The translations under genes were made by a program, and so were the position numbers. Below, piece by piece: positions 21,051 through 53,617 of a DNA stretch of 64,000 nt. The notes under the pieces are model-generated. The model was not told the DNA's origin and did not search any database. It saw only the letters and a list, made by a program, of their open reading frames with translations. The stretch comes from Escherichia phage W22. How positions within the stretch are numbered: the first letter of the stretch is position 1; each line of letters begins with the position of its first letter. The stretch lies in the sequence record PV159336. One strand, given 5' to 3'.

Positions 21051-21057
21051 GTATTTA

Positions 21058-21133: not shown

Positions 21134-21138
21134 AATTT

Positions 21139-21538: not shown

Positions 21539-21553
21539 AATTACTACAGATTG

Positions 21554-21632: not shown

Positions 21633-21697
21633 ATAAATACCTCCCTTCTGGTGTAATGATTAAGTTACATTGACACTTCAAGGAACTTATAGCCGGG

Positions 21698-21773: not shown

Positions 21774-21778
21774 ATTAT

Positions 21779-21854
21779 TGTGGTATCGTACAGATGGTTA
21801 GTACACTCGACCGATAATCGAGAAACAACGGTTCGACTCCGTTTACCACGACCA
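21779..21854 (+). tRNA. tRNA-Ile (anticodon GAT)
   Basis: Manual fold: acceptor TGTGGTA/TACCACG, D-arm GTACAGATGGTTAGTAC, stem CTCGA/TCGAG loop CCGATAA, T-loop GGTTCGACTCC, CCA. Confidence 0.55.
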
Positions 21855-37959: not shown

Positions 37960-38007
37960 TGAGTGATAAGGGAGAATGTTTCTTATCACATTAAGAGGTA
38001 AAATTAT

Positions 38008-38718
38008 ATGGCAGCAAACACTCCAGAACAACACGTTCAAGCGGTTTATAAAGCGGAACAAGATATAAATTCTACAAAAAACACAAATAACTCTGCCTCT
38101 ACTGTGAAAGGGGAGAATGGTTTTTGTATTTTAGCAAGTGTTTACAATAGTGCAAGTGATCAATATATTCAAAACTACCAGGCTATAGTTTTTGATGCTG
38201 TGCCAAATATCGGTGTAAAACGCCAAGCAGATGTTACTAGCTATCCTGTAGAAAATGGTGCTAATGTATCGGATCACGTTCAAGTTAAAAATAATACTTT
38301 CTCTTTATCAGGAATGATTACAGAGACACCTGTAAGATTGATGCGAGATATGCTATATAGTGCTGGTGTTAACGGTACTCGTATCAGTCAAGCAATTACT
38401 TATTTAGATAAAATATTTGATGAAAGACAGCCTATCATTTTAATAACAGAACATAAGGTGTATGAGAATGTTATTTTGAAAGGCATATCATATGAATATC
38501 AAACAGAATATGCAATGCAATTTGACTTGGAATTTGAACAAGTAAGATTAGTTTCCTACGGGGAAACAAATGCTATTGCACTTAAGACAAAACCAAATAA
38601 GAATACAGGTGTTAAAAACAAGAAAGGTACTAGTCCAGATGCTGATTTGGATGCAAGAACAGGGAAAGCAACTGGTACAGAACATCTTAGTGATCACAGT
38701 GCAGATGGTAAAAAATAA
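38008..38718 (+). CDS. baseplate / tail structural protein
   Basis: ORF track 236 aa; position after the tape measure. Confidence 0.4.
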   Translation: MAANTPEQHVQAVYKAEQDINSTKNTNNSASTVKGENGFCILASVYNSASDQYIQNYQAIVFDAVPNIGVKRQADVTSYPVENGANVSDHVQVKNNTFSLSGMITETPVRLMRDMLYSAGVNGTRISQAITYLDKIFDERQPIILITEHKVYENVILKGISYEYQTEYAMQFDLEFEQVRLVSYGETNAIALKTKPNKNTGVKNKKGTSPDADLDARTGKATGTEHLSDHSADGKK

Positions 38719-38729
38719 GGAGAAAATTT

Positions 38730-39149
38730 TTGGCTATTTCATCTTATTCAAAGATCAGTAGAAGCACATCTAATAGTGGCTACAATGCAGTATTTATTGA
38801 TCGAAATTTAGGTTATTATTCTTGGTACTTACCTACAGAACAGTACCCAGACCAAACATATACGGTAACTCTCGATGGAGTAGATTATGATATACGTTTG
38901 AGATGGAATACAAGAGATCAAGCGTGGCAAATGCAATTAGGATTATCAGGAGACAATCCTAGTGTAACTTTTAAAGTAACTAATGGTTTAGATCTTCTAG
39001 AACCATATAAGTATATAGAATCTGTACCGGATGGTCAACTCTATTTGGTAGATACTGTTAAAATAAACGGTAGACCTAATTACTATGACACAGGTGTAGA
39101 TAAAAGATTTGCTTTGGTTTATATCGACGCTCTTCCATATCAAGCATGA
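38730..39149 (+). CDS. baseplate / tail structural protein
   Basis: ORF track 139 aa (TTG start). Confidence 0.35.
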   Translation: MAISSYSKISRSTSNSGYNAVFIDRNLGYYSWYLPTEQYPDQTYTVTLDGVDYDIRLRWNTRDQAWQMQLGLSGDNPSVTFKVTNGLDLLEPYKYIESVPDGQLYLVDTVKINGRPNYYDTGVDKRFALVYIDALPYQA

Positions 39150-39165
39150 TAAAAGGAGTTTTTAA

Positions 39166-40176
39166 ATGGCAGAAGAAAGAAATTACACAAAAGCTCCTGC
39201 ACCAAATCTAAACAGAGCATACAAACTGTTAATAGGTACAGCTACTAATACTAAAGAAAAAAGGACAAAAAATTCCTCTTTCAAATCTACAGTAGACTTA
39301 GATACTAAACTAGGGGATGCTAAAAAATCAACCCCTAATTTGTATGTTATTACGGAGCACCAAATATCTTTCACAATAAGAAAAGATAATAATAAAGATC
39401 CTAATCAAGCCGAGATAACTATTTATAACCTAAGTGATGATACTGTTAATTATATTAACAAAGGTATTCGTAACAACTTGGCTGTTGCTTTGGCAGTAGG
39501 TTATGAAGGTCAAGAGTTAATTATGATCTTTAAGGGAACGGTGCAGTGGGTGAGTGATACCTTTAACAATACAGACAGACGTACAGTGTTACATTGTCTG
39601 GATGGTGGTATTAACATCTCCGAAGCAAGGACAAGCAGAAGTTATCCGAAAGGTACAAAAGTAAGTAAGGTTGTTAAAGATTTAGTTAAAGATTTAGGTA
39701 CTACAGAAGGTAATATTCACGTAGATACAGAGAAAACTTTATCATCTGCAACAGCTATGTGTGGGAACACATCACATTACTTAGAAAGTATCTGTAAAGG
39801 TATTGATCATAATGTGTCAATACAAGACGGATCTGTTTACGTGACACCAAGATCACAAATGTCTAGTGCAAGATGTGCATATATTAGCGCAGAAACAGGT
39901 TTAATTGGTAGTCCAGAACCTTTCCACAATGATATTAAACCGACACAAAAAGTAACCAAATCTTCTAAGAAAGCTAAAAAGCCTACAGATGGTGTTAAGT
40001 TCAGATGTGAGATGAACGGTGCTATTTTACCAGAAAAAACTGTTTGGCTCAAGAGCCATAACTACGATGGTGGTTTTAAGGTGGTGTCTGTTGTTCATAC
40101 AGGCGATAGGGAAGGTAAAGACTGGACAACTGAAGTAGAGTCTGTATCTGTATCTGCAATTATTAAGAAGGGCTAG
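39166..40176 (+). CDS. baseplate / tail structural protein (possibly late-control gpD-like)
   Basis: ORF track 336 aa; position. Confidence 0.4.
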   Translation: MAEERNYTKAPAPNLNRAYKLLIGTATNTKEKRTKNSSFKSTVDLDTKLGDAKKSTPNLYVITEHQISFTIRKDNNKDPNQAEITIYNLSDDTVNYINKGIRNNLAVALAVGYEGQELIMIFKGTVQWVSDTFNNTDRRTVLHCLDGGINISEARTSRSYPKGTKVSKVVKDLVKDLGTTEGNIHVDTEKTLSSATAMCGNTSHYLESICKGIDHNVSIQDGSVYVTPRSQMSSARCAYISAETGLIGSPEPFHNDIKPTQKVTKSSKKAKKPTDGVKFRCEMNGAILPEKTVWLKSHNYDGGFKVVSVVHTGDREGKDWTTEVESVSVSAIIKKG

Positions 40177-40178
40177 AA

Positions 40179-40916
40179 ATGGATGCTTTAAATTTTGTAA
40201 CAGCAATCCGTGGATTAATCAACGAGCAAGTTGCGGAAGTACATACATCTTTACCTGTAAGGGTAATTGGTGTAGATTATGGATCTAAGACAGTAACTTT
40301 AGAATCTATCGTAAAGAATACCAGATCTACTGAAGATGAAATAGATTACCCAACATTCCACGATGTTCCTTTTATGGTAAATGGTGGTGGTACAGGTAGA
40401 ATTTCATTTCCAATTAAAGCAGGAGATATTGGTGTTGTTGTCTTTTCAGAAAGAGATCCGTCGAATGCTTTCCAGACAGACGGAGATACAGCCAGTAGCG
40501 GAACATTAATTCAACCTTGTGGTTTGTATCCAGCCTGTTTTATTCCTAAGATAGCAACAGCTACGGATTCTTCTGAAGAAGTAGATTCTGAAAAAGTTGT
40601 TATCTCAAATAATAAGCAAACTTACGCTTCGTTTGATCCTAACGGTAATATATCTGTGTACAACACACAAGGTATGAAAATAGATATGACACCAGACAGT
40701 ATCGTTCTTACTGATGCAGGAGGAGGAAAACTTACACTGCAAGGTGGGACTATGACATATAAAGGTGGTACTGTAAATTTAAACGGTTTAACAATCACAC
40801 CTGACGGTCGTATGAAAGATAGTGGTGGCATTGGTTTACACACACATACACACCCTGTACGCGGTGTTGAAACTGGTGGTAGCACTGTTACTTCCGACAA
40901 ACCAAATGGAGGTTAA
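40179..40916 (+). CDS. baseplate central spike protein (gpV-like)
   Basis: 245 aa; size and position; Gly-rich C-terminus (TGGSTVTSDKPNGG). Confidence 0.4.
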   Translation: MDALNFVTAIRGLINEQVAEVHTSLPVRVIGVDYGSKTVTLESIVKNTRSTEDEIDYPTFHDVPFMVNGGGTGRISFPIKAGDIGVVVFSERDPSNAFQTDGDTASSGTLIQPCGLYPACFIPKIATATDSSEEVDSEKVVISNNKQTYASFDPNGNISVYNTQGMKIDMTPDSIVLTDAGGGKLTLQGGTMTYKGGTVNLNGLTITPDGRMKDSGGIGLHTHTHPVRGVETGGSTVTSDKPNGG

Positions 40917-40919
40917 CAG

Positions 40920-41555
40920 ATGGGAATACCATTTGATTTAAAACTTGATGGTTCTAACGATTTAGTAATGGTGGATGGTGATTTAACACTAACCACAACT
41001 AAAAGTGAAATTGCAGCACAGACGCTTGGAATAACACTTAGAACTTTCCGTGGAGAATGGTTCCTCAATTCTAATTTTGGGGTTCCATATCTGCAAGAGA
41101 TTATTGGTGTTGCCAAGAAGAAAGAGATTGTTGATCGCATTTTCTTATCAACTATCGCAAGTAATGTTTATATAGATAATATTAATTCCTACACATCCTC
41201 TTATGATAGAGATGATAGGTATTACTCAATGAACGTTACTGTTACAGTTGGTGAACAAGTTGTTAGTGCGCTGTTCAGTACACAGCCGTCTGAAGAATAT
41301 ATCTATCCAGAAGCTGGTGATGATAATGCAGCAATCACTTGTGAAGCATTTGAAATTGTTGAATCTGCAAATAGACTCTATCGCTTTATTAACATTGTTG
41401 GTCTTCCTAGAAATACTTATTCTACTTGGTGGAATGAGTGGTCTAACGAGGCATTGATTGAAAAATACCTTGTTAACGAAGCCAATAAAGGTCTTGCAAC
41501 CAATTACAACTATGCTATAACAGCAACAATGGGAGCTACAAACAATAATGGCTGA
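40920..41555 (+). CDS. baseplate wedge protein (gpW/gp25-like)
   Basis: 211 aa; position immediately after the spike gene. Confidence 0.35.
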   Translation: MGIPFDLKLDGSNDLVMVDGDLTLTTTKSEIAAQTLGITLRTFRGEWFLNSNFGVPYLQEIIGVAKKKEIVDRIFLSTIASNVYIDNINSYTSSYDRDDRYYSMNVTVTVGEQVVSALFSTQPSEEYIYPEAGDDNAAITCEAFEIVESANRLYRFINIVGLPRNTYSTWWNEWSNEALIEKYLVNEANKGLATNYNYAITATMGATNNNG

Positions 41556-42021
41556 TTTAACTACAATCAAGGTGTCTGATCTACCTGTAACAACATCTGT
41601 TTCAGACACAGATTATTTTGTAACAGATCAATCGGGCATCACTAAGAAAACATCATTACGTGTTCTTCTTGCGGGTGCTGGTGTTACACGAAATCGTCTT
41701 TCTGCAAGGGGTACTGTTACAAACACCCTAGCTTTAGATATTAGTACGGCAGAGTATTTCTCTGCCACTTTATCTAGTCCAACTTGCAGTATTTCATTTA
41801 GTAATGTTCCAGTTACAACTAACATTGTTCAAAACTTTACTCTATCCCTACGTCAAGGAAGTGGAGCAAATAAAGTAACGTGGCCTCAATCTGTTAAATG
41901 GAGTTTTGGTCGCGCTCCTGTTTTGAGTTATAAACAGGGAGCTACAGATATTTTTGAATTTGTTAGTTATGATAATGGAGCTACCTGGATAGGTAGTTTA
42001 GTGATGGCAGGAGTGATTTAA
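41548..42021 (+). CDS. tail protein with fibre-type N-terminal anchor motif
   Basis: 157 aa; N-terminus IKVSDLPVTTSVSDTDYFVTDQSGITKKTS resembles that of ORF 47074. Confidence 0.4.
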   Translation: MADLTTIKVSDLPVTTSVSDTDYFVTDQSGITKKTSLRVLLAGAGVTRNRLSARGTVTNTLALDISTAEYFSATLSSPTCSISFSNVPVTTNIVQNFTLSLRQGSGANKVTWPQSVKWSFGRAPVLSYKQGATDIFEFVSYDNGATWIGSLVMAGVI

Positions 42022-44897
42022 TGTCAAGAATTAAGCACAGAATTGACAATGTTTTTCAACTGATCGATGGACATATTCAGTTCTTAGATCGTAATACAGG
42101 TTTAACTGTAGATCCTACAGTGCAACACTATGTATTAAACCCACAAAACGTTCTAGCTAATAACAGACACTTTATAAACTGGACTGCTCAAGAAGGGCAA
42201 CCAAACGGGGATGCTACAACAGAAGGTCAATCCGTGCTTATTCTTGGTTGCGCTTATGCATACCTAGCTTCCGGCGATACAAAGTATTTAGACTCTGCTA
42301 AAAAATATTGGCAAGCCTATATAGATTACTTCTTTGGTGGTCAGCCTATTCCAGATCCGCCAGCAAAATATCGCCCTAACTGGATTATTAACGGTAAAGA
42401 ACCACGTCTTGCGCACTATCCTCTTACAGATGATGGCTACCCTACACACGGAGGTTTTAAGGGTAGCTTAATGACGTGGACTAACGGTAGAACAGTTATT
42501 CCTCATGGTGCTCCACATTGGGGAGAATACCTTGACAAAGCATGGTTTGCTTTTAATGGTAATCTAGGATGGAACTCTGTAAACGCTACAGTATATGCTG
42601 TTAATGCAGATGGAACAACAGATTGGTCTAAGAATGGAGATCAATGGGATGTTGATTGGATCATTGATCGTCTAGGACGTAAAGTTGATTGGGATGGAAA
42701 TATCTTAGAAGAAGGTTTTCCAACATCTCAATACGGAACAGTTCAACTAAAAAATACTTCTGTAAACGGTACATATAAATTTAACTACGCGACTTGTAAC
42801 CCTGTTGAACACGGTGGTTATTTAATGGAGCGTAACACTATGTGGCATAACAGACCAGTTAACGTTCCGGTAGAAATGGGCTTTCAGGATAATGCGTCAG
42901 ATGCCGAAACTTGGTGGTGTGATGCTAATTACCTGATGTACCAAATTACAGGAGAAAGAAAATATTGGCTATGCTGGCAGTCTTCACTGTTAGTGTGTCA
43001 AGATTACTCAAACATTGATATGTTTGATAAATTCTTCCGTAAATCTACATATGCAACTATTCCGTTTACAGATGGCATCTCTTACGATTATTCGTATCCA
43101 TCTACAGCAATACCTAAATATTCAAGAGATACTTTAGGTTATATTGTTATTAGACAAGATGTTGCTGCTCAAACAACATTAGAACAGCAAGCCATTTGGT
43201 TTAAAGTGGATCAGAACTCTAAGTTACGAGTTCAGTTTCAAGGTGTAGATGACGCAGGACATGGTATTCTTTTCCGTCCAGAGTTGGAACTAAGTAAGAC
43301 CAAAGATGAAAATAACACAGTAACTTACCGTTGTGGCTTACCACTGGGTACAGCTAGTATGACAAGCATGGATATTCCATTATCCAGCTTTATGAGAAGC
43401 ACCCCTCCGAATGGTGGAACATATATTATCGCAGATCCGCGAATTATTGTTGACTGGGGTGGCAATACTGTGGTACAATTTAAGTATGTAACAGGTATTG
43501 CTGGAACTAATAATGACCAGATTGTTACTGCATCAATGGATACGGATGGTGGTATTACTGTTGGTTTTTGGTTAACTCCTACATCAAAAGCTAATGTTAA
43601 GTCTATTACATATAGAACATATGAAGATGACTTTAACATGACTATCACGGATGCTCAAGGTTGGAGATGGTGGGCTATGCTTCCTAAAACGCAAGGGGCA
43701 TGGAGTACGAAGACTTTATCAGCTTCTGATTTTAAGTTAAGTGCTTACCAGCCTAATCATCCAGAAACAGATCCTAAACCTTCAGCAATAAATCTTACTG
43801 CGGTAGACCAGGTAAATTTAGTTCTCGATACGGCTCCTGTCAATGGTTTAACAGGAACAATAGATTTCTATTGTATTAACGATGTACCTGAAAGATATTC
43901 GTCATCTTCTGGTGATGATTATACCATGTACTTCCGTATCACTGTACAGGCTTCAAGTCCTCATACTGCTAAATTAGGTGATTGTACTATTATTGACTAT
44001 AAGTTAAATAGTCTTAATTACACACCAGGAATAATTCCATTCTCTAATATCAGTGACCCAAACACTGCATTGTATGATGGCTGGCGTGGTATTCCATACC
44101 CAGGATACCAATACCCTTCCTTATACTGTTTTGCAGGTAGAGATATTGATTGGACGCGTTTAAATAACAGTATCAATTTCTTGTATGATGCTCAAATGTG
44201 GTTTTATAACACGTTTGATCCTGTGATGCCTGGGCCTATGGCACAAGCATATGTGTGGGATCGTTGGGATGCAAGAAAATACGGTGAACCTAATACGTTT
44301 ACAATGAAACACTGGAATGAAAAAGCGTGGGATGGTTATGAAGCTCGTGCATTCTACTGTGCTTGTCATGCTGTATACGAACTTGTACAAAGAGGAGAAA
44401 CACCTCCTGAAAAACTAGTAACTGTTTGTAAAAATTGGATCAACTACCTTAAATGGTTCCAAGACAATAATGATGGAAGAACACCAACTATCTTTAACCC
44501 AGATGGTACAGTTCTTGCACCTATAGATGACTTTACTAGTCATATGTCTGCACTGTTTATGGCGGGTTGTTCAATCATGGGCTTGGCAGGTTATGATTCA
44601 CAAATTCCAAACATTGGTATTGTAGCAGACAGATGTTTTGATCTGATTCAGCAAAACTATATTGTGCTTTCCCCTAACCATCCGATGAATGGTTCCTGGA
44701 GTGTTGCACCACGCCCAGATTCAGATAACGGAATGTTCTTTGGTTTCCATGCTGGAGAACTATTACGTGGTTTTGGTTTATATGCCTTGTATCGTAAACT
44801 AAACCCTCAAAACGCTTTACCAATTTTGGATAATAGTAACATACCAACACTAACTGTTCTAACTATGAATGATATTAGTGTTGATGTAACCAAATAA
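42021..44897 (+). CDS. large tail / baseplate-associated structural protein
   Basis: 958 aa ORF; Trp/aromatic-rich. Confidence 0.4.
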   Translation: MSRIKHRIDNVFQLIDGHIQFLDRNTGLTVDPTVQHYVLNPQNVLANNRHFINWTAQEGQPNGDATTEGQSVLILGCAYAYLASGDTKYLDSAKKYWQAYIDYFFGGQPIPDPPAKYRPNWIINGKEPRLAHYPLTDDGYPTHGGFKGSLMTWTNGRTVIPHGAPHWGEYLDKAWFAFNGNLGWNSVNATVYAVNADGTTDWSKNGDQWDVDWIIDRLGRKVDWDGNILEEGFPTSQYGTVQLKNTSVNGTYKFNYATCNPVEHGGYLMERNTMWHNRPVNVPVEMGFQDNASDAETWWCDANYLMYQITGERKYWLCWQSSLLVCQDYSNIDMFDKFFRKSTYATIPFTDGISYDYSYPSTAIPKYSRDTLGYIVIRQDVAAQTTLEQQAIWFKVDQNSKLRVQFQGVDDAGHGILFRPELELSKTKDENNTVTYRCGLPLGTASMTSMDIPLSSFMRSTPPNGGTYIIADPRIIVDWGGNTVVQFKYVTGIAGTNNDQIVTASMDTDGGITVGFWLTPTSKANVKSITYRTYEDDFNMTITDAQGWRWWAMLPKTQGAWSTKTLSASDFKLSAYQPNHPETDPKPSAINLTAVDQVNLVLDTAPVNGLTGTIDFYCINDVPERYSSSSGDDYTMYFRITVQASSPHTAKLGDCTIIDYKLNSLNYTPGIIPFSNISDPNTALYDGWRGIPYPGYQYPSLYCFAGRDIDWTRLNNSINFLYDAQMWFYNTFDPVMPGPMAQAYVWDRWDARKYGEPNTFTMKHWNEKAWDGYEARAFYCACHAVYELVQRGETPPEKLVTVCKNWINYLKWFQDNNDGRTPTIFNPDGTVLAPIDDFTSHMSALFMAGCSIMGLAGYDSQIPNIGIVADRCFDLIQQNYIVLSPNHPMNGSWSVAPRPDSDNGMFFGFHAGELLRGFGLYALYRKLNPQNALPILDNSNIPTLTVLTMNDISVDVTK

Positions 44898-44905
44898 GGA
44901 AAATA

Positions 44906-47065
44906 ATGAAACAGGCTATTTTTACTGTAACTCGAAATACGAGAGTAAATGCCAGTTCATTCAGCTATAAGACCGTCGATGGAACGGCGGTCGCTGGTAG
45001 AGATTATGTAGCTAAACAGGGAACAGTAACGTTCCCTTCTGATGCAGATTCTGCTACTGTAGTGGTTGATGTATATGAACGTCCGGCAAACTCTTTAGAT
45101 CTTTATTTTACTCTTGAGATTACTAGCATAAGTCAAAATAACATGATGATCAACGAAGAAATTCGTTGTGTTATTACGACTGATCAATCGAATACAACCC
45201 CGCTAACTTGGCCTGTTGTGAAGTCTAGAATGTTTGATCCTAAGTTTTGGACAATAGATTCTCAAGCAACAGAAAGTTGTTCTATTATCTCTAATGGTGA
45301 TTCTTTCACAGCAAGAATGGTTAATAGGACAGTGGCTGGTCTTGCTGGGATTATTTGGTCAACTTACGATAAATATGATCACAAAGGATTAGGCTACCAA
45401 GAACATTCTGACTTAAGTAAAGAGAAACTTTGGTTTAAAATGGAACTTAGTCAAGGTGTTCCTGGATTAAAAGAAGAAAAATTAATACCATCCTTAACAG
45501 TGACACTGAAGGATGAAACAGTTCATTATGTATCTCTAAACTTTTATGCAGAAGAAGTTTCAGAGGATGGTAAAACAGCAACAATCAAACTAGATTTCTC
45601 AAATTTAAAATCTGGGCCAGAAAATGATATTGTTGTTGACACTACACAGATAGATAATATGTTCTTCTCCTTGATCTCAACGAGGTATCAAGAAATTGAA
45701 GATATTATTCCTGTAGACAATGAGGATCTTTCCTTTAAGTTTACCATACTGGAGCCTGATACTGGTTACAGTATGATGAATATGGGTAATTTAAATGTTC
45801 CAGCACACACCATAAGAATGTGTACATCTTATGATGATATGTATAACCTGACCCCAGAGCGAGTTATTTCTAACACCTACAGATTAGGTTATAGGGATAT
45901 GATTAACCACTATAATGGTATGTCACACTATTATCAGTTTAGTTGGGATGCTGGTTCTAATAAATGGGCTTTGAATAGAACAGAATATTTAAACCCAGCA
46001 ACAGAAGCATGGTTTGATAATTTCCACGCTAATGCAAAAGCTATGGGCTACACAGTAATGAATTCCTTAAGTTTTGAACTTATGAGTACAGTGTGTCCTG
46101 TAGAATGGGTACAACATACTTGGAATGATAATCTTGCTGCTACAGGTTATGAGCCACCAAGTTATGTTTTATCTCCTTCAATTGATGAAGGGATGAATTA
46201 TTTACAAGGTGTAATAAATAAGATAGCTTCTATATCCGCTGCTAATGATCTTCCGGTTATTATTCAGGTTGGTGAACCGTGGTGGTGGTATAACACAGCT
46301 ACCAATCTACCGTGTATTTATGATTATACAACCAAAGTTGCATTTAATAATGAAACTGGATTGTATGCACAAGATGTTGGTACAGTTAAAAATTATAAAA
46401 CTGGTACACCATATGATGAATATTATGCATTCCTATCTAAAACATTAGGACTGCGTGTTGCTAAATTTGCAACAGATACCAGATTAGCATATCCTGGAGC
46501 TAAAGTTACATTGTTACCATTTGTGCCATCCATTTTGGGTAACGGTATGATGGAATTTGTTAACTTCCCTAAAGATTATTATATCCCAGAAAACTTTGAC
46601 TTTTATTGTTCAGAATGTTATGATTGGTTGTTGGAAGGTAAGATGGAAAGATCTTTCGACGCTATCACAATACCTAATGAGCAACTAGGTTTTAGTTATG
46701 ATAAGATACATTATCTTGCAGGGTTTGTTCCAGATGCAACTCTAGCACCATTATATGGCTTTGATCCTGAATCAGACTACAGAACATATTTGTGGAAAAT
46801 GATTATAGGTAATATTGTATTGAATGACCAGAAGTTTGTTGGTTTATATCAATACATATGGGCTTATCCACAAATAATGCATGATTCAATAACTGTTCTT
46901 AATTCAAAATCCCAAGTTTTTTATATGGGTAATGTGCCTTTGAATTGCTATTTGCAAGATATCACTCTTAAACAGGTAAATGTTACGATTGCTACTATAA
47001 GCGGAATTACATTAGCCACTAAATCTGGAGAAGATTTAGTAACAACACAAAAATTTTATATATAG
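44906..47065 (+). CDS. tail-associated structural protein
   Basis: 719 aa ORF. Confidence 0.4.
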   Translation: MKQAIFTVTRNTRVNASSFSYKTVDGTAVAGRDYVAKQGTVTFPSDADSATVVVDVYERPANSLDLYFTLEITSISQNNMMINEEIRCVITTDQSNTTPLTWPVVKSRMFDPKFWTIDSQATESCSIISNGDSFTARMVNRTVAGLAGIIWSTYDKYDHKGLGYQEHSDLSKEKLWFKMELSQGVPGLKEEKLIPSLTVTLKDETVHYVSLNFYAEEVSEDGKTATIKLDFSNLKSGPENDIVVDTTQIDNMFFSLISTRYQEIEDIIPVDNEDLSFKFTILEPDTGYSMMNMGNLNVPAHTIRMCTSYDDMYNLTPERVISNTYRLGYRDMINHYNGMSHYYQFSWDAGSNKWALNRTEYLNPATEAWFDNFHANAKAMGYTVMNSLSFELMSTVCPVEWVQHTWNDNLAATGYEPPSYVLSPSIDEGMNYLQGVINKIASISAANDLPVIIQVGEPWWWYNTATNLPCIYDYTTKVAFNNETGLYAQDVGTVKNYKTGTPYDEYYAFLSKTLGLRVAKFATDTRLAYPGAKVTLLPFVPSILGNGMMEFVNFPKDYYIPENFDFYCSECYDWLLEGKMERSFDAITIPNEQLGFSYDKIHYLAGFVPDATLAPLYGFDPESDYRTYLWKMIIGNIVLNDQKFVGLYQYIWAYPQIMHDSITVLNSKSQVFYMGNVPLNCYLQDITLKQVNVTIATISGITLATKSGEDLVTTQKFYI

Positions 47066-47073
47066 GAGTAAAA

Positions 47074-47988
47074 ATGTCAACTACAATTACTAATTTACCC
47101 GAAACATCAAAAGTTAATGGTTCAGATTACCTGGTTTTAGATCAATCTGATAAAACTGTTAAAAGCACAGTTTCCAACTTTCTTACTGACACTGGGGTGG
47201 TTAAAGATTACACTCGTCCTAATATCCGTCAGTTGATCCGCGACCGTGAGGAAGCATTGATCGGAAACAAGGTTCGCTTTGTAACATGGAACACTCAAGG
47301 ATATAACAGTGTGTACAAGTATTATGGAAAAGACTTCGCTAACCAACAACGTGTAACAGACTTGACAGAGTGGTTCCTTCGCATAGGGGCTGATTTTGTG
47401 GGATCACAAGAAGTCTGGTCTGTGCCAGATCAACCGGATAGATTCTTCGCACAATATCCGTATATTTCTGCTTTCCAGTCTATCTCTCTTTGGGAATCAT
47501 CGCTAGGACGCCGCTACGGAAACCTGGCAGTAGCTACACGCGCTTTGAACAACAGTACGTTTAAGATTTATGACTCTCAGCCTATCCCTGGTGACACCGA
47601 TAAGGAACTCCGTTCATATATCCGAACGGAAATGACGGTAGCAGGAACGACCATCGCAATCTACGTCACACACTTGTCTCTTAATCAGACACGCATAAAT
47701 GAAGAGATTGCCGAGTTGGGGCTGGCAATGCAGAACGACACAGCGACGCACATCGTTGTCATGGGGGACTGGAACACTAACACTGATACTGACTTCGCGC
47801 CGTTCACCGATCATGGATTCACTATGGTGAACAGGTTCGGTGAATTTAACACCAACAACGTTGGCAATACCTGGTATCTCGACCGAATTTTCTACAAAGG
47901 TTTCTCGGCTGAAGATGATCGCGGGGTCTTTGATACTCCTGTGTCACTTGGCGACCACAAGGCTCTCTATGTAGATCTGGTAATTTAA
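47074..47988 (+). CDS. tail-anchored endonuclease/exonuclease/phosphatase (EEP) family hydrolase
   Basis: 304 aa; fibre-type N-terminus then EEP-like motifs WNTQGY, SQEVW, GDWNTN, SLGDHKALY; GC content visibly higher than flanks. Confidence 0.5.
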   Translation: MSTTITNLPETSKVNGSDYLVLDQSDKTVKSTVSNFLTDTGVVKDYTRPNIRQLIRDREEALIGNKVRFVTWNTQGYNSVYKYYGKDFANQQRVTDLTEWFLRIGADFVGSQEVWSVPDQPDRFFAQYPYISAFQSISLWESSLGRRYGNLAVATRALNNSTFKIYDSQPIPGDTDKELRSYIRTEMTVAGTTIAIYVTHLSLNQTRINEEIAELGLAMQNDTATHIVVMGDWNTNTDTDFAPFTDHGFTMVNRFGEFNTNNVGNTWYLDRIFYKGFSAEDDRGVFDTPVSLGDHKALYVDLVI

Positions 47989-48000
47989 GGGGAAAGGAAA

Positions 48001-49308
48001 ATGAATTTACATACAATTGACGCAAACATACTTGACATGCAGGGGCTGCCTTTGGATCTCCGCATCAACAAGATGCTGTCAGACATCAACCGCCTGTATC
48101 AACGAGGGCAGGTTATACTGCTTACTAAGTTTGCTGATTTAGGTCTTGCTGACACCGAAGCTACAATGGCAAATGTGTTCGCTCGTATGCCTAATAACAC
48201 CATCTTTATGACTGAAGTTTACCGTGGTGTTCACACCAATTTCGACATGCCGACACTAATCAACGGTGCGAGATTATCTGGACGGTTGATTGTCTATGGT
48301 TCGTCCGAGTCAAGTAACAAATTGACTGCATACTTTCAGCAAGAAACAGGTTTGTGGACACGCCACCTGAACAAAGGTGCTGCCACAAATTATACCGATA
48401 CGGGATGGCATAAGATTGAAGTTCATGGTTTGCAAGAGGATCTAACCACAAGCTCTGTGACTAATCTTGAAAACAAGCTGTCAAACCTAAAAACGCCAGG
48501 CATCTATTACATAGCTGGTAGCATAATGTCACAATTCACAGACGTGCCCACAACAGGTTCAGGAGCATCACTGTGTGAAGTGACCTATATTCACCATCTG
48601 GCTGACACAATACAGACTTTGCGTACCAACGGGGTTGCTCAGACCGGGTGGCGTAGACAAATTTCTAACAATGGAACTGTTGGGGAATGGAAACAGGAGT
48701 TTGTTAGTGGCTCTCCTATGAATAGTTCGTCTACTATAAGTTTCGCCGGGGGAACTGTTTCTGGGACATTAACTACAAGGACGCTCCAACCTGAAAAAAC
48801 AGCAACCCACAACATCGGTTATGCTTCTGCTGCATACAATCAAGCGTATTTTCAGAATGCGCCCACAGTTGTTTCTGATGTGAATTATAAACTATTCATA
48901 GACGATATTCCTGACGATGTTTTGGATGCGTGGAGCACGGTTAACTACTATCAGTGGAAAATGAAAACTGCTGTTGCGGAGAAAGGTGAGGAAAAAGCGC
49001 GCCTTCATGTAGGTGTCCTTGCACAAGAAATCAAAGAGAAGTTTGAAGCTGCTGGTTTGGATGCAACCAAGTATGGCATTCTTATCTATGATTGTTGGGA
49101 AGCTGTTGAGGCTGTTGAATATAAACCTGCTGTATACGATCCAGATACTAACGAATTAATCTCTGAAGAAGTTCAGGCTGTTGAAGGACGTGAAGCAGGT
49201 GAGATCTGGATGGTGCGAATGGAAGAGTGTCTTGCTTTAGAAGCGGCACTGATGCGCCGGACTACAAAACGACTGGAAGATCGCATGGCTGCTCTGGAAG
49301 GCAAGTAA
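48001..49308 (+). CDS. tail fibre protein with C-terminal chaperone-like domain
   Basis: 435 aa; C-terminal region rich in LE..R..ALE repeats; shares the GC shift of 47074. Confidence 0.4.
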   Translation: MNLHTIDANILDMQGLPLDLRINKMLSDINRLYQRGQVILLTKFADLGLADTEATMANVFARMPNNTIFMTEVYRGVHTNFDMPTLINGARLSGRLIVYGSSESSNKLTAYFQQETGLWTRHLNKGAATNYTDTGWHKIEVHGLQEDLTTSSVTNLENKLSNLKTPGIYYIAGSIMSQFTDVPTTGSGASLCEVTYIHHLADTIQTLRTNGVAQTGWRRQISNNGTVGEWKQEFVSGSPMNSSSTISFAGGTVSGTLTTRTLQPEKTATHNIGYASAAYNQAYFQNAPTVVSDVNYKLFIDDIPDDVLDAWSTVNYYQWKMKTAVAEKGEEKARLHVGVLAQEIKEKFEAAGLDATKYGILIYDCWEAVEAVEYKPAVYDPDTNELISEEVQAVEGREAGEIWMVRMEECLALEAALMRRTTKRLEDRMAALEGK

Positions 49309-49310
49309 AT

Positions 49311-49335
49311 AAAGCCCCGCTTCGGCGGGGAATTA
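49311..49335 (+). terminator. hairpin terminator
   Basis: AAAGCCCCGC-TTCG-GCGGGG hairpin with weak U-tract. Confidence 0.45.
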
Positions 49336-49539
49336 TAAAGGTACTATCATGGTCTTCATTACGATTCACACAAACTATGTCCTGCAAGCGCATGTCATCG
49401 CCATGTGATAAAATGATGAAAACATATCGTAGCAGGGTTAATCTTGTCTTTAGTTACTATCGTACTAACTCAAAATGTTGTCACTACCACTGCAAACCCC
49501 TCCAAAGAGGGGCTTACTTAGAAAAACAAAGAGGTTGTT

Positions 49540-49689
49540 ATGAACGAAATGTTCTCCCAAGGCGGTATTGCCCCAGGTACTACTGCCATTAGTCTTAGTG
49601 CTGCTGTACTTGTGCATTCAGCGGGTTCTGTAGACCTTGGGGAATTAGCTGTATATCGTGATTTAAAAAGTAATGAGAACGCACTATGA
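49540..49689 (+). CDS. small hypothetical protein (49 aa)
   Basis: Manual ORF MNEMFSQGGIAPGTTAISLSAAVLVHSAG... after AAAGAGG RBS; stop overlaps the next start as ATGA. Confidence 0.3.
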   Translation: MNEMFSQGGIAPGTTAISLSAAVLVHSAGSVDLGELAVYRDLKSNENAL

Positions 49690-49931
49690 GAAAATTTTTA
49701 ATAGGTATGTTCTGTACATATCCTGATAATAAAGTCAGTTCTACTAAAGTTTGGAATGCTATTGGTATGATTGTTATGTCCAGTATGTTTATTTATTTGG
49801 GAATTGATAAAGAAATTCCTGAATGGATGGGCTGGGCTTTTGTTTTTATGATCACACCATCTAGACTAATGAAGAATTTAATAGATTTACGTTGGGGCAG
49901 ATCACCTGCCCCTGATAAGGAGGATAACTAA
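49686..49931 (+). CDS. small membrane protein (two predicted TM helices), holin-like candidate
   Basis: 81 aa; hydrophobic segments AIGMIVMSSMFIYLGI and WMGWAFVFMI. Confidence 0.35.
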   Translation: MRKFLIGMFCTYPDNKVSSTKVWNAIGMIVMSSMFIYLGIDKEIPEWMGWAFVFMITPSRLMKNLIDLRWGRSPAPDKEDN

Positions 49932-51418
49932 TGGCAGATTATGGTTTAACAGATGCTGGTTTTGTCATTCCAACATTTGATGATATTCTAAATAATTATA
50001 TGACAGCATTGAAAAACACTTTCGGTGCAGATACAGCTACATCTGAAGATACTGTCTTTGGTCAACTGTTTCGTATTATTGCATATACAGATTACACCCT
50101 TTGGGAAGGTATGCAAGGTGTTTACAATACCCAAACCTTAGATGGTGCAGAAGGTATTTACCTTGATGAAATCTTCTCTAAAAGAGGTTTTTATCGTAAA
50201 GCTGCTTCTGCTGGTAGTGGTTATGCTTATGTTAAATCTAACAATAAGGCAGCTTGGACTTATGAACTAAGCACAGATGTTTATTTTAATGCCGATAACG
50301 ATTTGACATATTATGTCAGTGCACCAACAATGTTGAATGCTAAGATTGGAGCATATACCATTTCTAAAGCAAACGCAACAGCTTCTGGTGAAACTTCTAT
50401 TACTTTCTACATTCAAAGTGCTATTGATGGTGGTCTTAACAGTAAAACACTAAGTCCTAGCAATACAAACTTTATTGTAGATCTCACGAATTTCATTAAA
50501 GCTAACGTATCAACAACAGATCGTGCTTTAGTATGGAATGATGCTAGTAATGTTTACATGGGTTATAATCCAGAAGATAATGTTAACCCAATAGGTCTAG
50601 TAACACCAGTGAAATTTTATGCATCCATTGCAATTGGTACAAAATGGAGTGAAATTCCAGTTACGTGTTCAGACGTTGGTTATAATCCAGTAGGTACAGA
50701 AAGTATTACAGGTATTTCTTCAACGTTTACAGGCTTTTTAGATACAGGTAACTTCTATCCGTTCTCTCCAGGTACAGATGTTGAAACAGATGCAGAATTC
50801 CGTTCTCGTTTCAATGATAATATGGATGAAGCTAATGCTGCTACTCGTGCTGCTATTGTTAAAGCTCTATTACTGACAGATGGTGTGACAAAGGTTAAGA
50901 TTTATGATAACCCTACACTACACGATCAGGAACATGCTCCAGCTATGACATTCCAGACTATTGTGTATGGTGGTACAGCAGAAGAAGTTGCACAGGTTAT
51001 TTATAATACTAAGCCTATTAACACCTTAACTTATGGTACGACAGCAATTACTATCATAACAGAAGATGGTGGTCAAGAAGTAATTCGTTTTTCTCCTGGT
51101 GATAATGCGGAATACTCACTTAAACTGGTATATCAAACTGGCAATGGTAGTGTGTTAAGTACAACAGAAAGGGAAAATATTGTTTCTGCTCTTGCAAACT
51201 TACAGGCTTACTTTGAATTAGGCTCAACAGTAACTAACGATCAGATAAAAGGTGTAATTTATTCTGCACTTGCGTTCGGACGCTTGACTTCTCTCCGTGT
51301 TTATGTTAAACTTAATACTGAGGATGACAGTAAATATAATGAGGGAGATATTACTCCAGCGTACAATGTTGTACCATCCTTTGACCTTGATAATATTTCC
51401 TACGAGTACGGAGTCTAA
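49931..51418 (+). CDS. baseplate protein J-like
   Basis: 495 aa; size and position before gpI-like and fibre genes. Confidence 0.4.
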   Translation: MADYGLTDAGFVIPTFDDILNNYMTALKNTFGADTATSEDTVFGQLFRIIAYTDYTLWEGMQGVYNTQTLDGAEGIYLDEIFSKRGFYRKAASAGSGYAYVKSNNKAAWTYELSTDVYFNADNDLTYYVSAPTMLNAKIGAYTISKANATASGETSITFYIQSAIDGGLNSKTLSPSNTNFIVDLTNFIKANVSTTDRALVWNDASNVYMGYNPEDNVNPIGLVTPVKFYASIAIGTKWSEIPVTCSDVGYNPVGTESITGISSTFTGFLDTGNFYPFSPGTDVETDAEFRSRFNDNMDEANAATRAAIVKALLLTDGVTKVKIYDNPTLHDQEHAPAMTFQTIVYGGTAEEVAQVIYNTKPINTLTYGTTAITIITEDGGQEVIRFSPGDNAEYSLKLVYQTGNGSVLSTTERENIVSALANLQAYFELGSTVTNDQIKGVIYSALAFGRLTSLRVYVKLNTEDDSKYNEGDITPAYNVVPSFDLDNISYEYGV

Positions 51419-51420
51419 AA

Positions 51421-52050
51421 ATGGCAGTGAGTGTTGACCATGTGACAACGTGGGATAGTATCAATGAAGATGTTAAAGACCTACTGATTGAAGATTTTAA
51501 ATCTTCTCCGAACATTGTCAAACTACTCTATATCATTTCTAGCGAAAAACAAAAGATAGATCAGGCAATGATCTATCTTGCCAAACACCGCTTAATCTCT
51601 ACTGCAACTGGTAAGTATTTAGATCTTATTGGTGAAGAGATGGGGATGGAAAGAAATGGTGCTACGGATGAAGAGTATCGTACAATATTAAAAATCAGGG
51701 CTTATCGTGTTGCGTCTTCTGGTACGCGAGATGATATCATTGATATGTTCGCTCGTTTTACAGGAACAGAAAAAGAAACGATTAATACATACGTTGGATT
51801 AAATAAAACATTCGACGTATTCTTTTATAATTTGTGTCTACAATCCGATCAGGCAGTAGCACAGTTACTTAACGTTTTCCCGATCCTAAGTAGTTATCGC
51901 TTAGGTGCGAAAGCGGGTGCAGCCTTTGGTTTCACTTCCTACTATGCCACAAAGCCACCTCATGGTATAGGTGGTTTAGGTTCTCTTTACACAGAGGCTG
52001 AAGGAGATGATACAGGGCGAATGACTATGCTGATAGCTCAAATAGAATAA
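51421..52050 (+). CDS. tail protein I-like (baseplate)
   Basis: 209 aa; position after the J-like gene. Confidence 0.35.
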   Translation: MAVSVDHVTTWDSINEDVKDLLIEDFKSSPNIVKLLYIISSEKQKIDQAMIYLAKHRLISTATGKYLDLIGEEMGMERNGATDEEYRTILKIRAYRVASSGTRDDIIDMFARFTGTEKETINTYVGLNKTFDVFFYNLCLQSDQAVAQLLNVFPILSSYRLGAKAGAAFGFTSYYATKPPHGIGGLGSLYTEAEGDDTGRMTMLIAQIE

Positions 52051-52063
52051 GGAGTTACCCTTA

Positions 52064-53044
52064 ATGGCAAAGCCACAATACTACCCTGACTGGGCGACAC
52101 AAACAGTAACCCTCCCAGGAACGGGAAACACAAACAAGATTAGACCAAAAGAAACCATCCGTAATGTTGGTATGGACTTTGGTCAGATTATGACTTGTGA
52201 AGAAATGAACTGGATCTTAAACAATATTGGGTCTTGGATTCGCTATATGCAAGATGAATTCTTCCCAACATTGCCTACTACATATCTTCCTATAGTCGGT
52301 ACTAAAATTACAATGGCAGGTGATGCTACAGGTGAAGTTACATGGAATGGTAATGCTGCTGTAACATTATCTATTCAAGTCGTAGATAACAGCCATAATC
52401 ACTTATCAGCTAACATTACAGACGCAACATCAAACCAAGTTGTAGGGAATGTCCTTGTTAAACGTGATAATGGTGGTGCTATCTATGCAGGTGATATTTA
52501 CACTTGTGGTACAGGTGCTACAGATCCTGCAACATTATTTTTTAGAAACTATAATGGACAAACAGTAGGCAATATGTCTTCTGAACCAGGTGCAGGTGGT
52601 CAACTCTATATTTATAGAATAAATCCATCTACTGGAGGAACATCTTGTGGAGTTCGTTTGTATGATGCAGGTTATGTTTTAATAGACAACCCTCGCTCTA
52701 ATTCTGGTCAAGATACTGGCAATGGTAATGCTCTTGTAAGATTAGATTATCTTAACTCAAGACTAAACTCATTGCAAAGCACACTGCAAAATAACATTAA
52801 CAACGTTAATAGTAACTTGCAAGGCCAAATTAATAACATTAACAATAGAGTTTCTTCTGTTGTGTCTTCTATCCGTCTAGGTACACGTATTAAAGCTGGT
52901 GTATCTGAATCTCCTTTCTATGCTGGTCACGTGATCACAGGCTGGGGTTTTGGTGATAAGAAAGAACTTCGTGGTGCTTGGTATTGGTCTGCTCCGCTAC
53001 AATATTACATTAATGGTAGGTGGATAACAGTAACCAACGTTTAG
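52064..53044 (+). CDS. tail fibre protein
   Basis: 326 aa; Gly/Asn/Thr-rich with repeat NNINNVNSNLQGQINNINN. Confidence 0.45.
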   Translation: MAKPQYYPDWATQTVTLPGTGNTNKIRPKETIRNVGMDFGQIMTCEEMNWILNNIGSWIRYMQDEFFPTLPTTYLPIVGTKITMAGDATGEVTWNGNAAVTLSIQVVDNSHNHLSANITDATSNQVVGNVLVKRDNGGAIYAGDIYTCGTGATDPATLFFRNYNGQTVGNMSSEPGAGGQLYIYRINPSTGGTSCGVRLYDAGYVLIDNPRSNSGQDTGNGNALVRLDYLNSRLNSLQSTLQNNINNVNSNLQGQINNINNRVSSVVSSIRLGTRIKAGVSESPFYAGHVITGWGFGDKKELRGAWYWSAPLQYYINGRWITVTNV

Positions 53045-53056
53045 TAAGGAGAACAC

Positions 53057-53608
53057 ATGAAAAAAGATGTTATTTACACTGGCTTTGAACTATATCAACC
53101 AGAATTGACAGAAGAAAATGTCATGTATCTTTCAATAGGTGCTGGTTTTCTTAAAGATAAAGATGGTAATGATTGGTACGAAATTCAGAAATATTTATCC
53201 AAAAATTACCCTGATGCCTATTTCTTAACTCTAGATCACAACAATGTAGTTGTTGCAGTTACGAAAGATGTTTCTACATATTTTCCTGCTGGTCTTACTG
53301 TTCTTGTAACGTATAATGTTCCAGATAAAATAGAAGAAGAAAGCAATCTAGGATCGTGGAAATATGATAATGGTAAGTTTATTTCTTATAATGGGTTTGC
53401 AATAGAAGATGCCAACCTTAAAATGGAAAAAGAATTAACTTGGGCCACAAATCAAATATCTGCAATGCAAGATTTAGAGGAATTACAAGGTTTATCTGAA
53501 GAACAAAAAGATTGGTTAGGAAAAGTTAAACTATATCGTGCAACACTGATTCAAATTAACGTTGAAGATGCACCTAATATAACTTGGCCTACAAGACCTA
53601 AGAAATAG
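53057..53608 (+). CDS. tail fibre assembly protein (chaperone)
   Basis: 183 aa directly downstream of the fibre gene. Confidence 0.4.
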   Translation: MKKDVIYTGFELYQPELTEENVMYLSIGAGFLKDKDGNDWYEIQKYLSKNYPDAYFLTLDHNNVVVAVTKDVSTYFPAGLTVLVTYNVPDKIEEESNLGSWKYDNGKFISYNGFAIEDANLKMEKELTWATNQISAMQDLEELQGLSEEQKDWLGKVKLYRATLIQINVEDAPNITWPTRPKK

Positions 53609-53617
53609 GGGTAATGT

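What the first reader, a model, noticed from the sequence alone, without database searches (positions are those of the whole stretch)
41548..49931. About 8 kb insertion of receptor-binding genes between the gpW-like and gpJ-like baseplate genes
The usual spike-wedge-J-I baseplate order is interrupted after the wedge-like gene (40920-41555) by five genes before the J-like gene at 49931. Two of them (41548 and 47074) begin with a similar anchor motif (I..L P.T..V...DY.V.DQS..T.K.S). This looks like modular accretion of extra receptor-binding proteins at a recombination hotspot in the baseplate operon.
Basis: inference. Interest (0 to 1): 0.45.

Follow-up and report, generated by a model that had tools for sequence, protein, structure and literature searches.

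The report
Swappable receptor-binding slot in phi92-like baseplate operon
The block of tail-fibre genes that splits the baseplate genes is a known, conserved feature of phi92-like E. coli phages; what is new in this phage is the content of its one swappable slot, a two-gene fibre module borrowed from unrelated phages.

Summary
The window is a phi92-like myovirus (Justusliebigvirus, about 97-98% nt identity to phi92). The products of 41548 and 47074 share a ~43-residue N-terminal motif (E=3e-6), the only such pair in the window.

It is not a recent 8 kb insertion. The gp140/141/142 part of the W-[receptor-binding genes]-J order is conserved in Justusliebigvirus and Phapecoctavirus. Equivalents sit in the same place in Vequintavirus and Seunavirus. 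In the outgroup Ounavirinae, W and J are adjacent.

Only one slot varies, 46962-49685. It is empty in about 23 phage records and holds a different gene body in nearly every occupied relative. Here codons 1-43 of the resident anchor are fused in frame to a foreign cassette, 47203-49330, with GC 45% against 37-38% in the flanks. The cassette encodes an EEP-family phosphodiesterase body and a Peptidase_S74 fibre. It is 91% nt identical to a 55%-GC Aeromonas-ST4-like phage and ends in a shared terminator hairpin.

The EEP+S74 gene pair travels together in 7 of 7 phage contexts. gp140+gp141 form a similar pair. I infer an adaptor-plus-cargo design for both.

Anchor/receptor-domain swapping in this genus is already published; this slot allele is not in any deposited phage.

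The parts
40920..41555 (+). gp139-like sheath initiator (gpW / T4 gp25-like), the left border of the block
   Evidence: PDB 21vq_L Phi92_gp139 E=1e-138, plus other 'sheath initiator' chains. phrog_120 baseplate wedge subunit.
41548..42021 (+). gp140-like small protein: N-terminal anchor (about residues 1-45) plus a widespread ~100-aa C-terminal beta-domain. Proposed adaptor for gp141.
42021..44897 (+). gp141-like large conserved tail protein (958 aa). Its start overlaps the gp140 stop. Proposed cargo of gp140.
   Evidence: phrog_2871 tail protein. A gp141-like gene follows a gp140-like gene in 9 of 10 contexts examined.
44906..47065 (+). gp142-like protein with Calx-beta, NCTSP_N and NCTSP TIM-barrel domains (N4 gp64/gp65-like). 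The last ~35 codons (46962-47065) are present only in phages whose slot is occupied.
   Evidence: Pfam. PDB 9lc0 Gp64 / non-contractile tail sheath. Breakpoint at 46961 and alternative C-termini.
47074..47202 (+). Resident 43-codon anchor of the variable slot gene (MSTTITNLPETSKVNGSDYLVLDQSDKTVKSTVSNFLTDTGVV)
   Evidence: At least 95% identical in 8 of 8 slot alleles compared. DNA homology to all occupied-slot relatives stops exactly at 47202. 79 phage records carry it.
47203..47988 (+). Foreign body of the slot gene: endonuclease/exonuclease/phosphatase (EEP) phosphodiesterase domain
   Evidence: PF03372, 46.7 bits against a cut-off of 24.5. Candidate catalytic positions invariant in 9 homologues. 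Foldseek hits Tdp2, neutral sphingomyelinase and nocturnin.
48001..49308 (+). Partner fibre protein (435 aa) with a C-terminal Peptidase_S74 intramolecular chaperone
   Evidence: PF13884. PDB 9vvr, 3gud, 3gw6 and 4uw8 match residues 257-435. Full-length homologue directly follows the EEP gene in 7 of 7 contexts.
47203..49330 (+). Horizontally acquired two-gene cassette
   Evidence: 90.9% nt identity over 2128 bp to Logan contigs L014/L015, whose flanks are 56% GC. Cassette GC 45.3% against 37-38% in the window flanks. No Stephanstirmvirinae record in the phage collection contains it.
49315..49330 (+). CCCCGC-UUCG-GCGGGG hairpin: terminator stem and right-hand crossover point of the cassette
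   Evidence: Folds at -15.1 kcal/mol, z=-2.5. The same or a near-identical hairpin follows the slot gene in phi92, PaulScherrer, PD114, TSP7_1, UAB_1, rV5 ORF37 and L014.
49540..49689 (+). 49-aa relic of a Kuttervirus/Gamaleyavirus-type tailspike N-terminus
   Evidence: PHROG hits to internal or N-terminal parts of tailspikes. It is an in-frame shortened copy, lacking about 53 codons, of the 102-aa ORF of PD114, which is about 90% identical to the first 94 aa of Kuttervirus tailspikes.
49686..49931 (+). gp144-like small membrane protein, conserved to the right of the slot
   Evidence: phrog_1322 membrane protein, E=5e-27. Present in empty-slot and occupied-slot relatives.
49931..51418 (+). gp145-like baseplate wedge protein (gpJ / T4 gp6-like), the right border of the block
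   Evidence: PF04865 Baseplate_J. phi92 gp145 was modelled as the wedge, with fibres attached to its C-terminal domain (PMC13450770).

Best explanation
The region is the conserved peripheral receptor-binding gene block of a phi92-like myovirus. It sits between the sheath-initiator gene and the wedge gene.

**Components**
1. A conserved module, gp140 plus gp141.
2. The conserved gp142, whose domains resemble phage N4 gp64/gp65.
3. One exchangeable slot.
4. A decayed tailspike fragment.
5. A small membrane protein.

**The anchor.** gp140 and the slot protein both begin with the same ~43-residue motif. The gp140 model folds it as a beta-hairpin plus a short helix. I infer that this motif plugs a trimeric fibre into the baseplate periphery.

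**The slot in this phage.** Everything after codon 43 has been replaced by a foreign two-gene cassette. The first product is an EEP-family phosphodiesterase body, now fused to the resident anchor. The second is a short fibre with a self-cleaving S74 chaperone domain. The right-hand crossover lies in a terminator hairpin shared by many receptor-binding cassettes. The left junction is an in-frame join with no detectable homology.

**Proposed mode of action (inferred).** Both anchor-bearing proteins act as adaptors. gp140 would carry gp141, and the EEP protein would carry the S74 fibre. The EEP domain probably cleaves a phosphodiester-linked surface glycan.

**Shown versus inferred.** Shown: gene identities, synteny, breakpoints, cassette homology, GC contrast and co-occurrence of the gene pairs. 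Inferred: the docking role of the anchor, the adaptor-cargo contacts and the enzyme substrate.
For: **Identity and synteny.** establish the phage type and the conserved gene order. gp139 is the sheath initiator and gp145 carries Baseplate_J.

**Anchor.** Pairwise E=3e-6. It is the only reciprocal pair among 564 ORFs. The profile also matches rV5 ORF43 and ORF41 and Seunavirus gp052c and gp050c, that is, two anchor-bearing genes per W-J block in three lineages.

**Slot.**
- Eight alleles share residues 1-43 and then diverge.
- The DNA breakpoint is at 47202 in all seven occupied-slot relatives compared.
- Right-hand breakpoints are nested at 49307, 49367, 49493, 49566 and 49691.
- The slot is empty, with breakpoints 46961 and 49685, in JohannJBalmer and phAPEC8_ev052. 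The same junction occurs in 23 records.

**Cassette.**
- 2128 bp at 90.9% identity to L014/L015, starting at codon 44 and ending at the hairpin stem.
- L014 carries a TerL 88.8% identical to Aeromonas phage ST4.
- The same body is joined at the same residue (K44) to Tail_spike_N or Head_binding N-termini.
- GC is 45% against 37-38% in the flanks.
- The hairpin is shared by many alleles and by rV5.

**Gene pairs.**
- EEP plus S74 are adjacent, 7-12 nt apart, in 7 of 7 contexts. The S74 protein aligns from residue 1-6, whereas the EEP protein aligns only from residue 20-50.
- gp140-like plus gp141-like are adjacent in 9 of 10 contexts, and the small protein's N-terminus differs between unrelated lineages, including a P2 gpH-type one.

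**Chemistry.** EEP candidate catalytic positions are invariant. The S74 Ser...Lys motif VVSDVNYK aligns with VVSDARDK of 9vvr.

**Not an assembly artefact.** The allele occurs on several independent contigs.
Against: - No structure shows where gp140-gp143 sit. The 2026 phi92 cryo-EM study could not resolve or assign fibres I and II, and its gp140 model did not fit the fibre II density (PMC13450770).
- The gp140 C-domain also ends many long fibres of up to 2036 aa. It could be a distal tip rather than a docking platform.
- One of three randomly chosen gp140-like genes has no gp141-like neighbour (L027).
- The EEP model is poor over residues 1-147 (pLDDT below 50), and no substrate can be deduced from it.
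- Gene adjacency can reflect co-transfer without physical contact.
Confidence: 0.78

Rival explanations
1. The whole ~8 kb is a recent insertion or accretion specific to this phage.
For: Relative to P2-type phages and to Ounavirinae, W and J are indeed separated.
Against: 41548-46961 is syntenic and 97-98% identical in all Justusliebigvirus examined and 74-84% identical in Phapecoctavirus. gp140/gp141 homologues occupy the same position in rV5 and Seunavirus. Only 47203-49330 is foreign.
Confidence: 0.04
2. The two anchor-bearing proteins are self-sufficient receptor-binding proteins. The downstream genes (gp141 and the S74 fibre) attach elsewhere by themselves. On this view the pairs are linked only because they are transferred together.
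For: The gp140 C-domain is a common C-terminal end of long fibres. L027 lacks a gp141-like neighbour. No interaction data exist.
Against: The N-termini of the second proteins stay conserved across unrelated phage morphotypes, while only the first proteins change their N-termini. A protein that docks directly on seven different virions would be expected to vary at its attachment end.
Confidence: 0.25
3. The EEP domain is a catalytically irrelevant structural connector. Receptor recognition lies only in the S74 fibre.
For: The S74 partner is always present. No EEP-type depolymerase was found in the searchable literature.
Against: Residues at positions that fit the EEP catalytic motifs by eye (N73, E113, H200, D232, N234, D294, H295) are invariant across homologues down to 47% identity. 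Another allele of the same slot carries a GDPD phosphodiesterase domain (P0035).
Confidence: 0.15
4. The N-terminal similarity is chance or low-complexity, or the in-frame fusion is a metagenome assembly chimera.
For: The motif is short (about 40 aa) and the window comes from an assembled contig.
Against: E-values of 3e-6 to 1e-5 with no other hit among 564 ORFs. The profile gives E=2e-20. The same fusion protein occurs in three sequence variants in one 90%-identity cluster, seen on several contigs from Logan and ENA assemblies. The Logan contig L016 is 99.5% identical to the window across the junction.
Confidence: 0.02

Closest known systems
Phage phi92 gp139-gp145 locus, the 'multivalent adsorption apparatus' (Schwarzer et al. 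2012, cited in PMC8594841; cryo-EM PMC13450770)
   Same: Same genus. Gene order is identical and the DNA is about 98% identical outside the slot. gp139 is the sheath initiator and gp145/gp146 the wedge. The gp143 slot gene begins with the same 43 residues.
   Different: phi92 carries endosialidase endoN92 (918 aa, one gene) in the slot. This phage carries an EEP-domain protein (304 aa) plus a separate 435-aa S74 fibre, and retains a 49-aa relic that phi92 lacks.
Anchor/receptor-domain modular tailspikes with cross-genus horizontal transfer (Pas et al. 2023, PMC10408124, which includes Justusliebigvirus)
   Same: A conserved genus-specific N-terminal anchor and an exchangeable distal part shared with unrelated genera. 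A conserved terminator-like motif lies downstream of the cassette.
   Different: The junction here is at residue 43, upstream of the Tail_spike_N domain that other alleles keep. The exchanged unit is two genes, not one receptor domain. The paper's motif sequences were not compared directly.
Branched or adaptor-mediated receptor-binding complexes: CBA120 TSP1-4, G7C gp66/gp63.1, K1-5/SP6 adaptor (my own knowledge; also summarised in PMC10408124)
   Different: No sequence homology to T4 gp10-like domains was detected. The interactions are inferred from gene-pair conservation only.
Two-gene lateral tail fibre locus of Drexlerviridae (BEK2/BEK3), with T5-type fibres ending in an S74 chaperone
   Same: The same EEP-then-S74 gene pair in the same order, at 57% aa identity for both proteins.
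   Different: In BEK2 the first protein has a 250-aa N-terminal part with Tail_spike_N. The locus lies between replication genes of a siphovirus, not in a baseplate operon.
P2/Mu-type baseplate gene order V-W-J-I-H-G (my own knowledge)
   Same: Homologous spike, W-like, J-like and I-like genes in the same relative order, followed by a Mu gpS-like short fibre and its chaperone.
   Different: W and J are separated by 8.4 kb of receptor-binding genes.

Membership tests
phi92-like (Justusliebigvirus) peripheral receptor-binding locus | Synteny and high nucleotide identity with phi92 gp135-gp149 | tested here: met
   84-86% of 38000-54000 aligns at 97-98% identity to phi92 and more than 50 relatives. 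The uncovered part is the slot.
phi92-like (Justusliebigvirus) peripheral receptor-binding locus | Slot gene begins with the conserved gp143 N-terminus | tested here: met
   Residues 1-43 are at least 95% identical to phi92 gp143 and six other alleles.
phi92-like (Justusliebigvirus) peripheral receptor-binding locus | Endosialidase in the slot (a property of phi92 itself, not of the genus) | tested here: not met
   The slot holds EEP and S74 genes. The only similarity to endosialidase is the S74 chaperone domain.
Modular anchor/receptor-domain tailspike exchange (Pas et al. 2023) | Anchor follows phage taxonomy while the distal part is shared with unrelated phages | tested here: met
   The anchor is shared within Stephanstirmvirinae. 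The body is 91% nt identical to an ST4-like phage and is also found in six other contexts.
Modular anchor/receptor-domain tailspike exchange (Pas et al. 2023) | Conserved DNA motifs flanking the receptor domain (motif 1/2 at the anchor end, motif 3 as terminator) | tested here: inconclusive
   A conserved terminator hairpin is present at the right junction. The left junction lies upstream of where motif 1 is described.
Endonuclease/exonuclease/phosphatase superfamily (PF03372) | Profile match above the curated threshold | tested here: met
   46.7 bits against a cut-off of 24.5, covering profile positions 1-225 of 225.
Endonuclease/exonuclease/phosphatase superfamily (PF03372) | Conserved catalytic and metal-binding residues | tested here: met
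   N73, E113, H200, D232, N234, D294 and H295 are invariant in 9 homologues. Their assignment to the canonical roles was made by motif inspection (WN, QE, TH, DWN, DH), not by structural superposition.
Endonuclease/exonuclease/phosphatase superfamily (PF03372) | Phosphodiesterase activity and its substrate | not testable with these tools
   The fold search returns generic EEP enzymes (Tdp2, sphingomyelinase, nocturnin) at 13-18% identity.
Peptidase_S74 intramolecular chaperone fibres | Profile match and Ser...Lys cleavage motif | tested here: met
   PF13884, 43.6 bits against a cut-off of 22. VVSDVNYK aligns with VVSDARDK of tailspike 9vvr. Matches also to 3gw6 (endoNF chaperone) and 4uw8 (T5 pb1).
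Branched receptor-binding complexes with T4 gp10-like docking domains (CBA120, G7C) | A T4 gp10-like docking domain in the carrier protein | tested here: inconclusive
Branched receptor-binding complexes with T4 gp10-like docking domains (CBA120, G7C) | Physical attachment of one receptor-binding protein to another | not testable with these tools
   Only gene-pair conservation is available.
P2-type contiguous baseplate cluster V-W-J-I | W and J genes adjacent | tested here: not met
   8.4 kb and seven ORFs lie between them. They are adjacent in the Ounavirinae outgroup.

The most novel reading that the evidence does not exclude
Two separate 'adaptor plus cargo' gene pairs (gp140+gp141 and EEP+S74) are portable units that move among very different phages. 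Only the first ~40-130 residues of the first protein are replaced at each move. In phi92-like phages a 43-residue plug is sufficient for attachment. This would assign gp140/gp141 and the slot proteins to the still unassigned fibres I and II of phi92. It would also define a new class of phosphodiesterase (EEP) receptor-destroying tail protein.
Probability: 0.4. Interest if true: 0.55.

Novelty: new member of a known kind. Interest (0 to 1): 0.36.

Why it matters
phi92-like phages are candidates for therapy because of their very broad host range. Which genes build which fibre is still an open point (PMC8594841; PMC13450770).

This locus gives a natural experiment on that question. A 43-codon anchor fused directly to a foreign body marks the minimal attachment module and a usable engineering junction. 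The conserved gene pairs yield testable assignments of adaptor and cargo. The EEP domain, together with a GDPD-carrying sister allele, points to phosphodiester-linked glycans as a receptor class not yet studied for these phages.

The general principle, conserved anchor with swapped receptor domain, is not new.

Tried and rejected
**Searches that found nothing**
- PDB sequence searches for gp140, gp141 and the EEP protein gave no hits.
- The Schwarzer 2012 phi92 paper is not held.
- A full-text search for EEP-domain tail fibres found nothing; an earlier attempt was rejected on term syntax.

**Scans at or near chance level, so no claim is made from them**
- Promoter-like sites: 51 found against 57.7 expected.
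- Terminator-like sites: 12 found against 9.3 expected.
- The only terminator I use is the hairpin supported by comparative data.

**Weak structural results**
- The AF2 model of the EEP protein was poor for residues 1-147. It was used only to confirm the fold class.
- Foldseek of the gp140 model gave one marginal hit.

**Ideas considered and rejected**
- That further tail proteins in the window (gp141, gp142, gp150, gp151, the 939-aa protein) share the anchor. Neither phmmer nor the profile finds it in them.
- That the cassette came directly from Drexlerviridae. BEK2 is only 57% aa and 65% nt identical, whereas an ST4-like contig is 91% nt identical.

Full report
**1. What the window is**

Region 38000-54000 aligns at 97-98% nucleotide identity to phage phi92 and more than 50 other Justusliebigvirus genomes (Stephanstirmvirinae). 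Only 84-86% of it is covered. The annotated phi92 and PaulScherrer records give a one-to-one gene map:

| Window coordinates | phi92 equivalent | Identity |
|---|---|---|
| 39166 | gp137 | hub |
| 40179 | gp138 | central spike |
| 40920-41555 | gp139 | sheath initiator |
| 41548 | gp140 | small tail fibre-like protein |
| 42021 | gp141 | large tail protein |
| 44906 | gp142 | tail protein |
| 47074-49308 | position of gp143 | variable slot |
| 49686 | gp144 | small membrane protein |
| 49931 | gp145 | wedge |
| 51421 | gp146 | wedge |
| 52064 | gp147 | short fibre |
| 53057 | gp148 | fibre chaperone |

The gp139 homologue matches chain 21vq_L (Phi92_gp139) and other sheath-initiator chains. 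The gp145 homologue hits Baseplate_J. A 2026 cryo-EM study of phi92 modelled gp139 as the sheath initiator and gp145/gp146 as the wedge. It could not resolve or assign fibres I and II (PMC13450770).

**2. Checking the observation**

All coordinates are right. Besides the five large ORFs there are two small ones: 49540-49689 (49 aa) and 49686-49931 (81 aa).

The N-terminal similarity between the 41548 and 47074 products is significant. BLASTP gives E=3e-6. Each N-terminus is the other's only hit among 564 six-frame ORFs. A profile built from anchors of several lineages hits only these two ORFs in the window.

**3. Not a recent insertion**

The same order, W-like, gp140, gp141, gp142, then J-like, is found in Phapecoctavirus at 74-84% identity. 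In rV5 the W-J interval holds ORF43 (gp140-like), ORF42 (gp141-like) and further fibre genes. In Seunavirus it holds gp140-like, gp141-like and a colanidase-type gene.

In the Ounavirinae outgroup (phage ST-3) the W-like and J-like genes are adjacent. There the gp140-like/gp141-like pair lies after the baseplate genes. The interruption is therefore a shared, old feature of the Vequintavirinae and Stephanstirmvirinae lineage. That these phages have large orthologous fibre loci with a few variable alleles is already published (PMC8594841).

**4. The real hotspot**

Pairwise blastn places the left end of homology with seven occupied-slot relatives at exactly 47202, the end of codon 43 of the slot gene. 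Right ends are nested at 49307, 49367, 49493, 49566 and 49691.

Eight slot proteins share residues 1-43 and then differ:
- endosialidase in phi92;
- bodies of 556 to 705 aa in five others, three of which still share their first ~90 residues;
- an 82-aa truncation in ESCO9;
- the EEP body here.

In JohannJBalmer and phAPEC8_ev052 the slot is empty, with breakpoints at 46961 and 49685. gp142 then ends 28 residues earlier. The empty junction occurs in 23 records. The anchor occurs in 79 records.

Downstream, the 49-aa ORF is an in-frame shortened copy, lacking about 53 codons, of a 102-aa ORF of PD114. That ORF is about 90% identical to the first 94 residues of Kuttervirus and Gamaleyavirus tailspikes. 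I read it as debris from earlier exchanges.

**5. The cassette in this phage**

No record in the 50,697-phage collection covers more than 29% of 47000-49950. The two proteins exist only in small clusters of unnamed metagenome-derived sequences.

One cluster member, P0003, has the same body from K44 onward but a different 129-aa N-terminus containing Tail_spike_N. Its contigs, L014 and L015, align to the window over exactly 47203-49330 at 90.9% identity. Their flanks are 56% GC. Their large terminase is 88.8% identical to that of Aeromonas phage ST4.

The cassette is 45% GC in a 37-38% GC neighbourhood. The right end of homology is the last base of a CCCCGC-UUCG-GCGGGG hairpin. A T-tract follows it in L014 but not in the window. 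The same or near-identical hairpin follows the slot gene in five other alleles and follows rV5 ORF37. This fits the terminator motif that Pas et al. proposed as a recombination site (PMC10408124). The left junction shows no homology between donor and recipient.

**6. What the cassette encodes**

The 304-aa protein is the anchor plus an EEP domain (PF03372). Seven positions that fit the EEP catalytic motifs by eye are invariant across nine homologues. The fold search returns only generic EEP phosphodiesterases.

The 435-aa protein ends in a Peptidase_S74 chaperone with a Ser...Lys motif.

In 7 of 7 genomic contexts the EEP gene is followed 7-12 nt later by a full-length homologue of the 435-aa protein. 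In each case the EEP protein is homologous only from residue 20-50 onward. The seven contexts are:
- this phage;
- the ST4-like contig;
- Drexlerviridae BEK2;
- a 131-kb contig;
- an SU10-like podovirus;
- two smaller contigs.

Because only the first protein changes its attachment end, I infer that the second protein rides on the first.

**7. gp140 and gp141**

The gp140 C-terminal domain is very widespread, with 5968 representative proteins, nearly all matching a C-terminal domain. A gp140-like small gene directly precedes a gp141-like large gene in 9 of 10 contexts examined:
- Justusliebigvirus (this window);
- Phapecoctavirus;
- Vequintavirus;
- two Seunavirus phages;
- Ounavirinae;
- a Vibrio Ackermannviridae phage;
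- a P2-like contig, where the pair follows gpI and the small protein has a P2 gpH-type N-terminus;
- one further contig.

The exception is contig L027. The gp141-like identity of the EC152 neighbour rests on annotation and synteny only.

**8. Verdict**

The kind of system is known. The allele, the two-gene nature of the exchanged unit and the adaptor-cargo reading of gp140/gp141 are new details of moderate interest.

Noticed in passing
window 58415-61234: A 939-aa protein with Big_2 domains ends the second fibre gene block. PaulScherrer has the same gene, but phi92 has two short genes there (gp152, gp153). This may be a second variable position.
   Followed up: partly
window 46962-47065: gp142 carries a 28-residue C-terminal extension in all 8 occupied-slot phages compared and lacks it in both empty-slot phages. 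It could be the docking partner of the anchor, or simply part of one old indel.
   Followed up: partly
P0035: Another allele of the same slot (same 43-aa anchor) carries Tail_spike_N plus a GDPD glycerophosphodiester phosphodiesterase domain. This is a second phosphodiesterase-type body at this position.
   Followed up: no
L020 7223-8170 and L021 7201-8403: In two smaller phage contigs an Acyl_transf_3 gene lies on the opposite strand directly after the EEP+S74 pair. This hints that the module's receptor is a surface polysaccharide that the phage can modify.
   Followed up: no
phage collection records MG0656xx: Several records labelled 'Campylobacter phage' with host C. jejuni are 100% identical to E. 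coli Justusliebigvirus or Vequintavirus sequences at this locus. They are probably mislabelled or contaminant genomes.
   Followed up: no
window 18974-21854: A cluster of 16 tRNA genes on the + strand. It coincides with the GC peak at 21-22 kb.
   Followed up: no
window 49390-49489: A stretch of about 100 nt in the intergenic region after the cassette is absent from the otherwise 99.5% identical Logan contig L016.
   Followed up: no
L007 22082-22351 against window 49686-49931: The gp144-like membrane protein sits after the fibre-assembly genes in Seunavirus rather than before the J-like gene, so its position is not fixed across the wider group.
   Followed up: no
A2 members: Many metagenomic gp140-like proteins begin with a looser version of the same motif (K-[IV]-[ST]-x-L ... 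D ... T-K-K ... L). The anchor may belong to a broad N-terminal tail-fibre motif; Pfam returned no family for gp140.
   Followed up: partly
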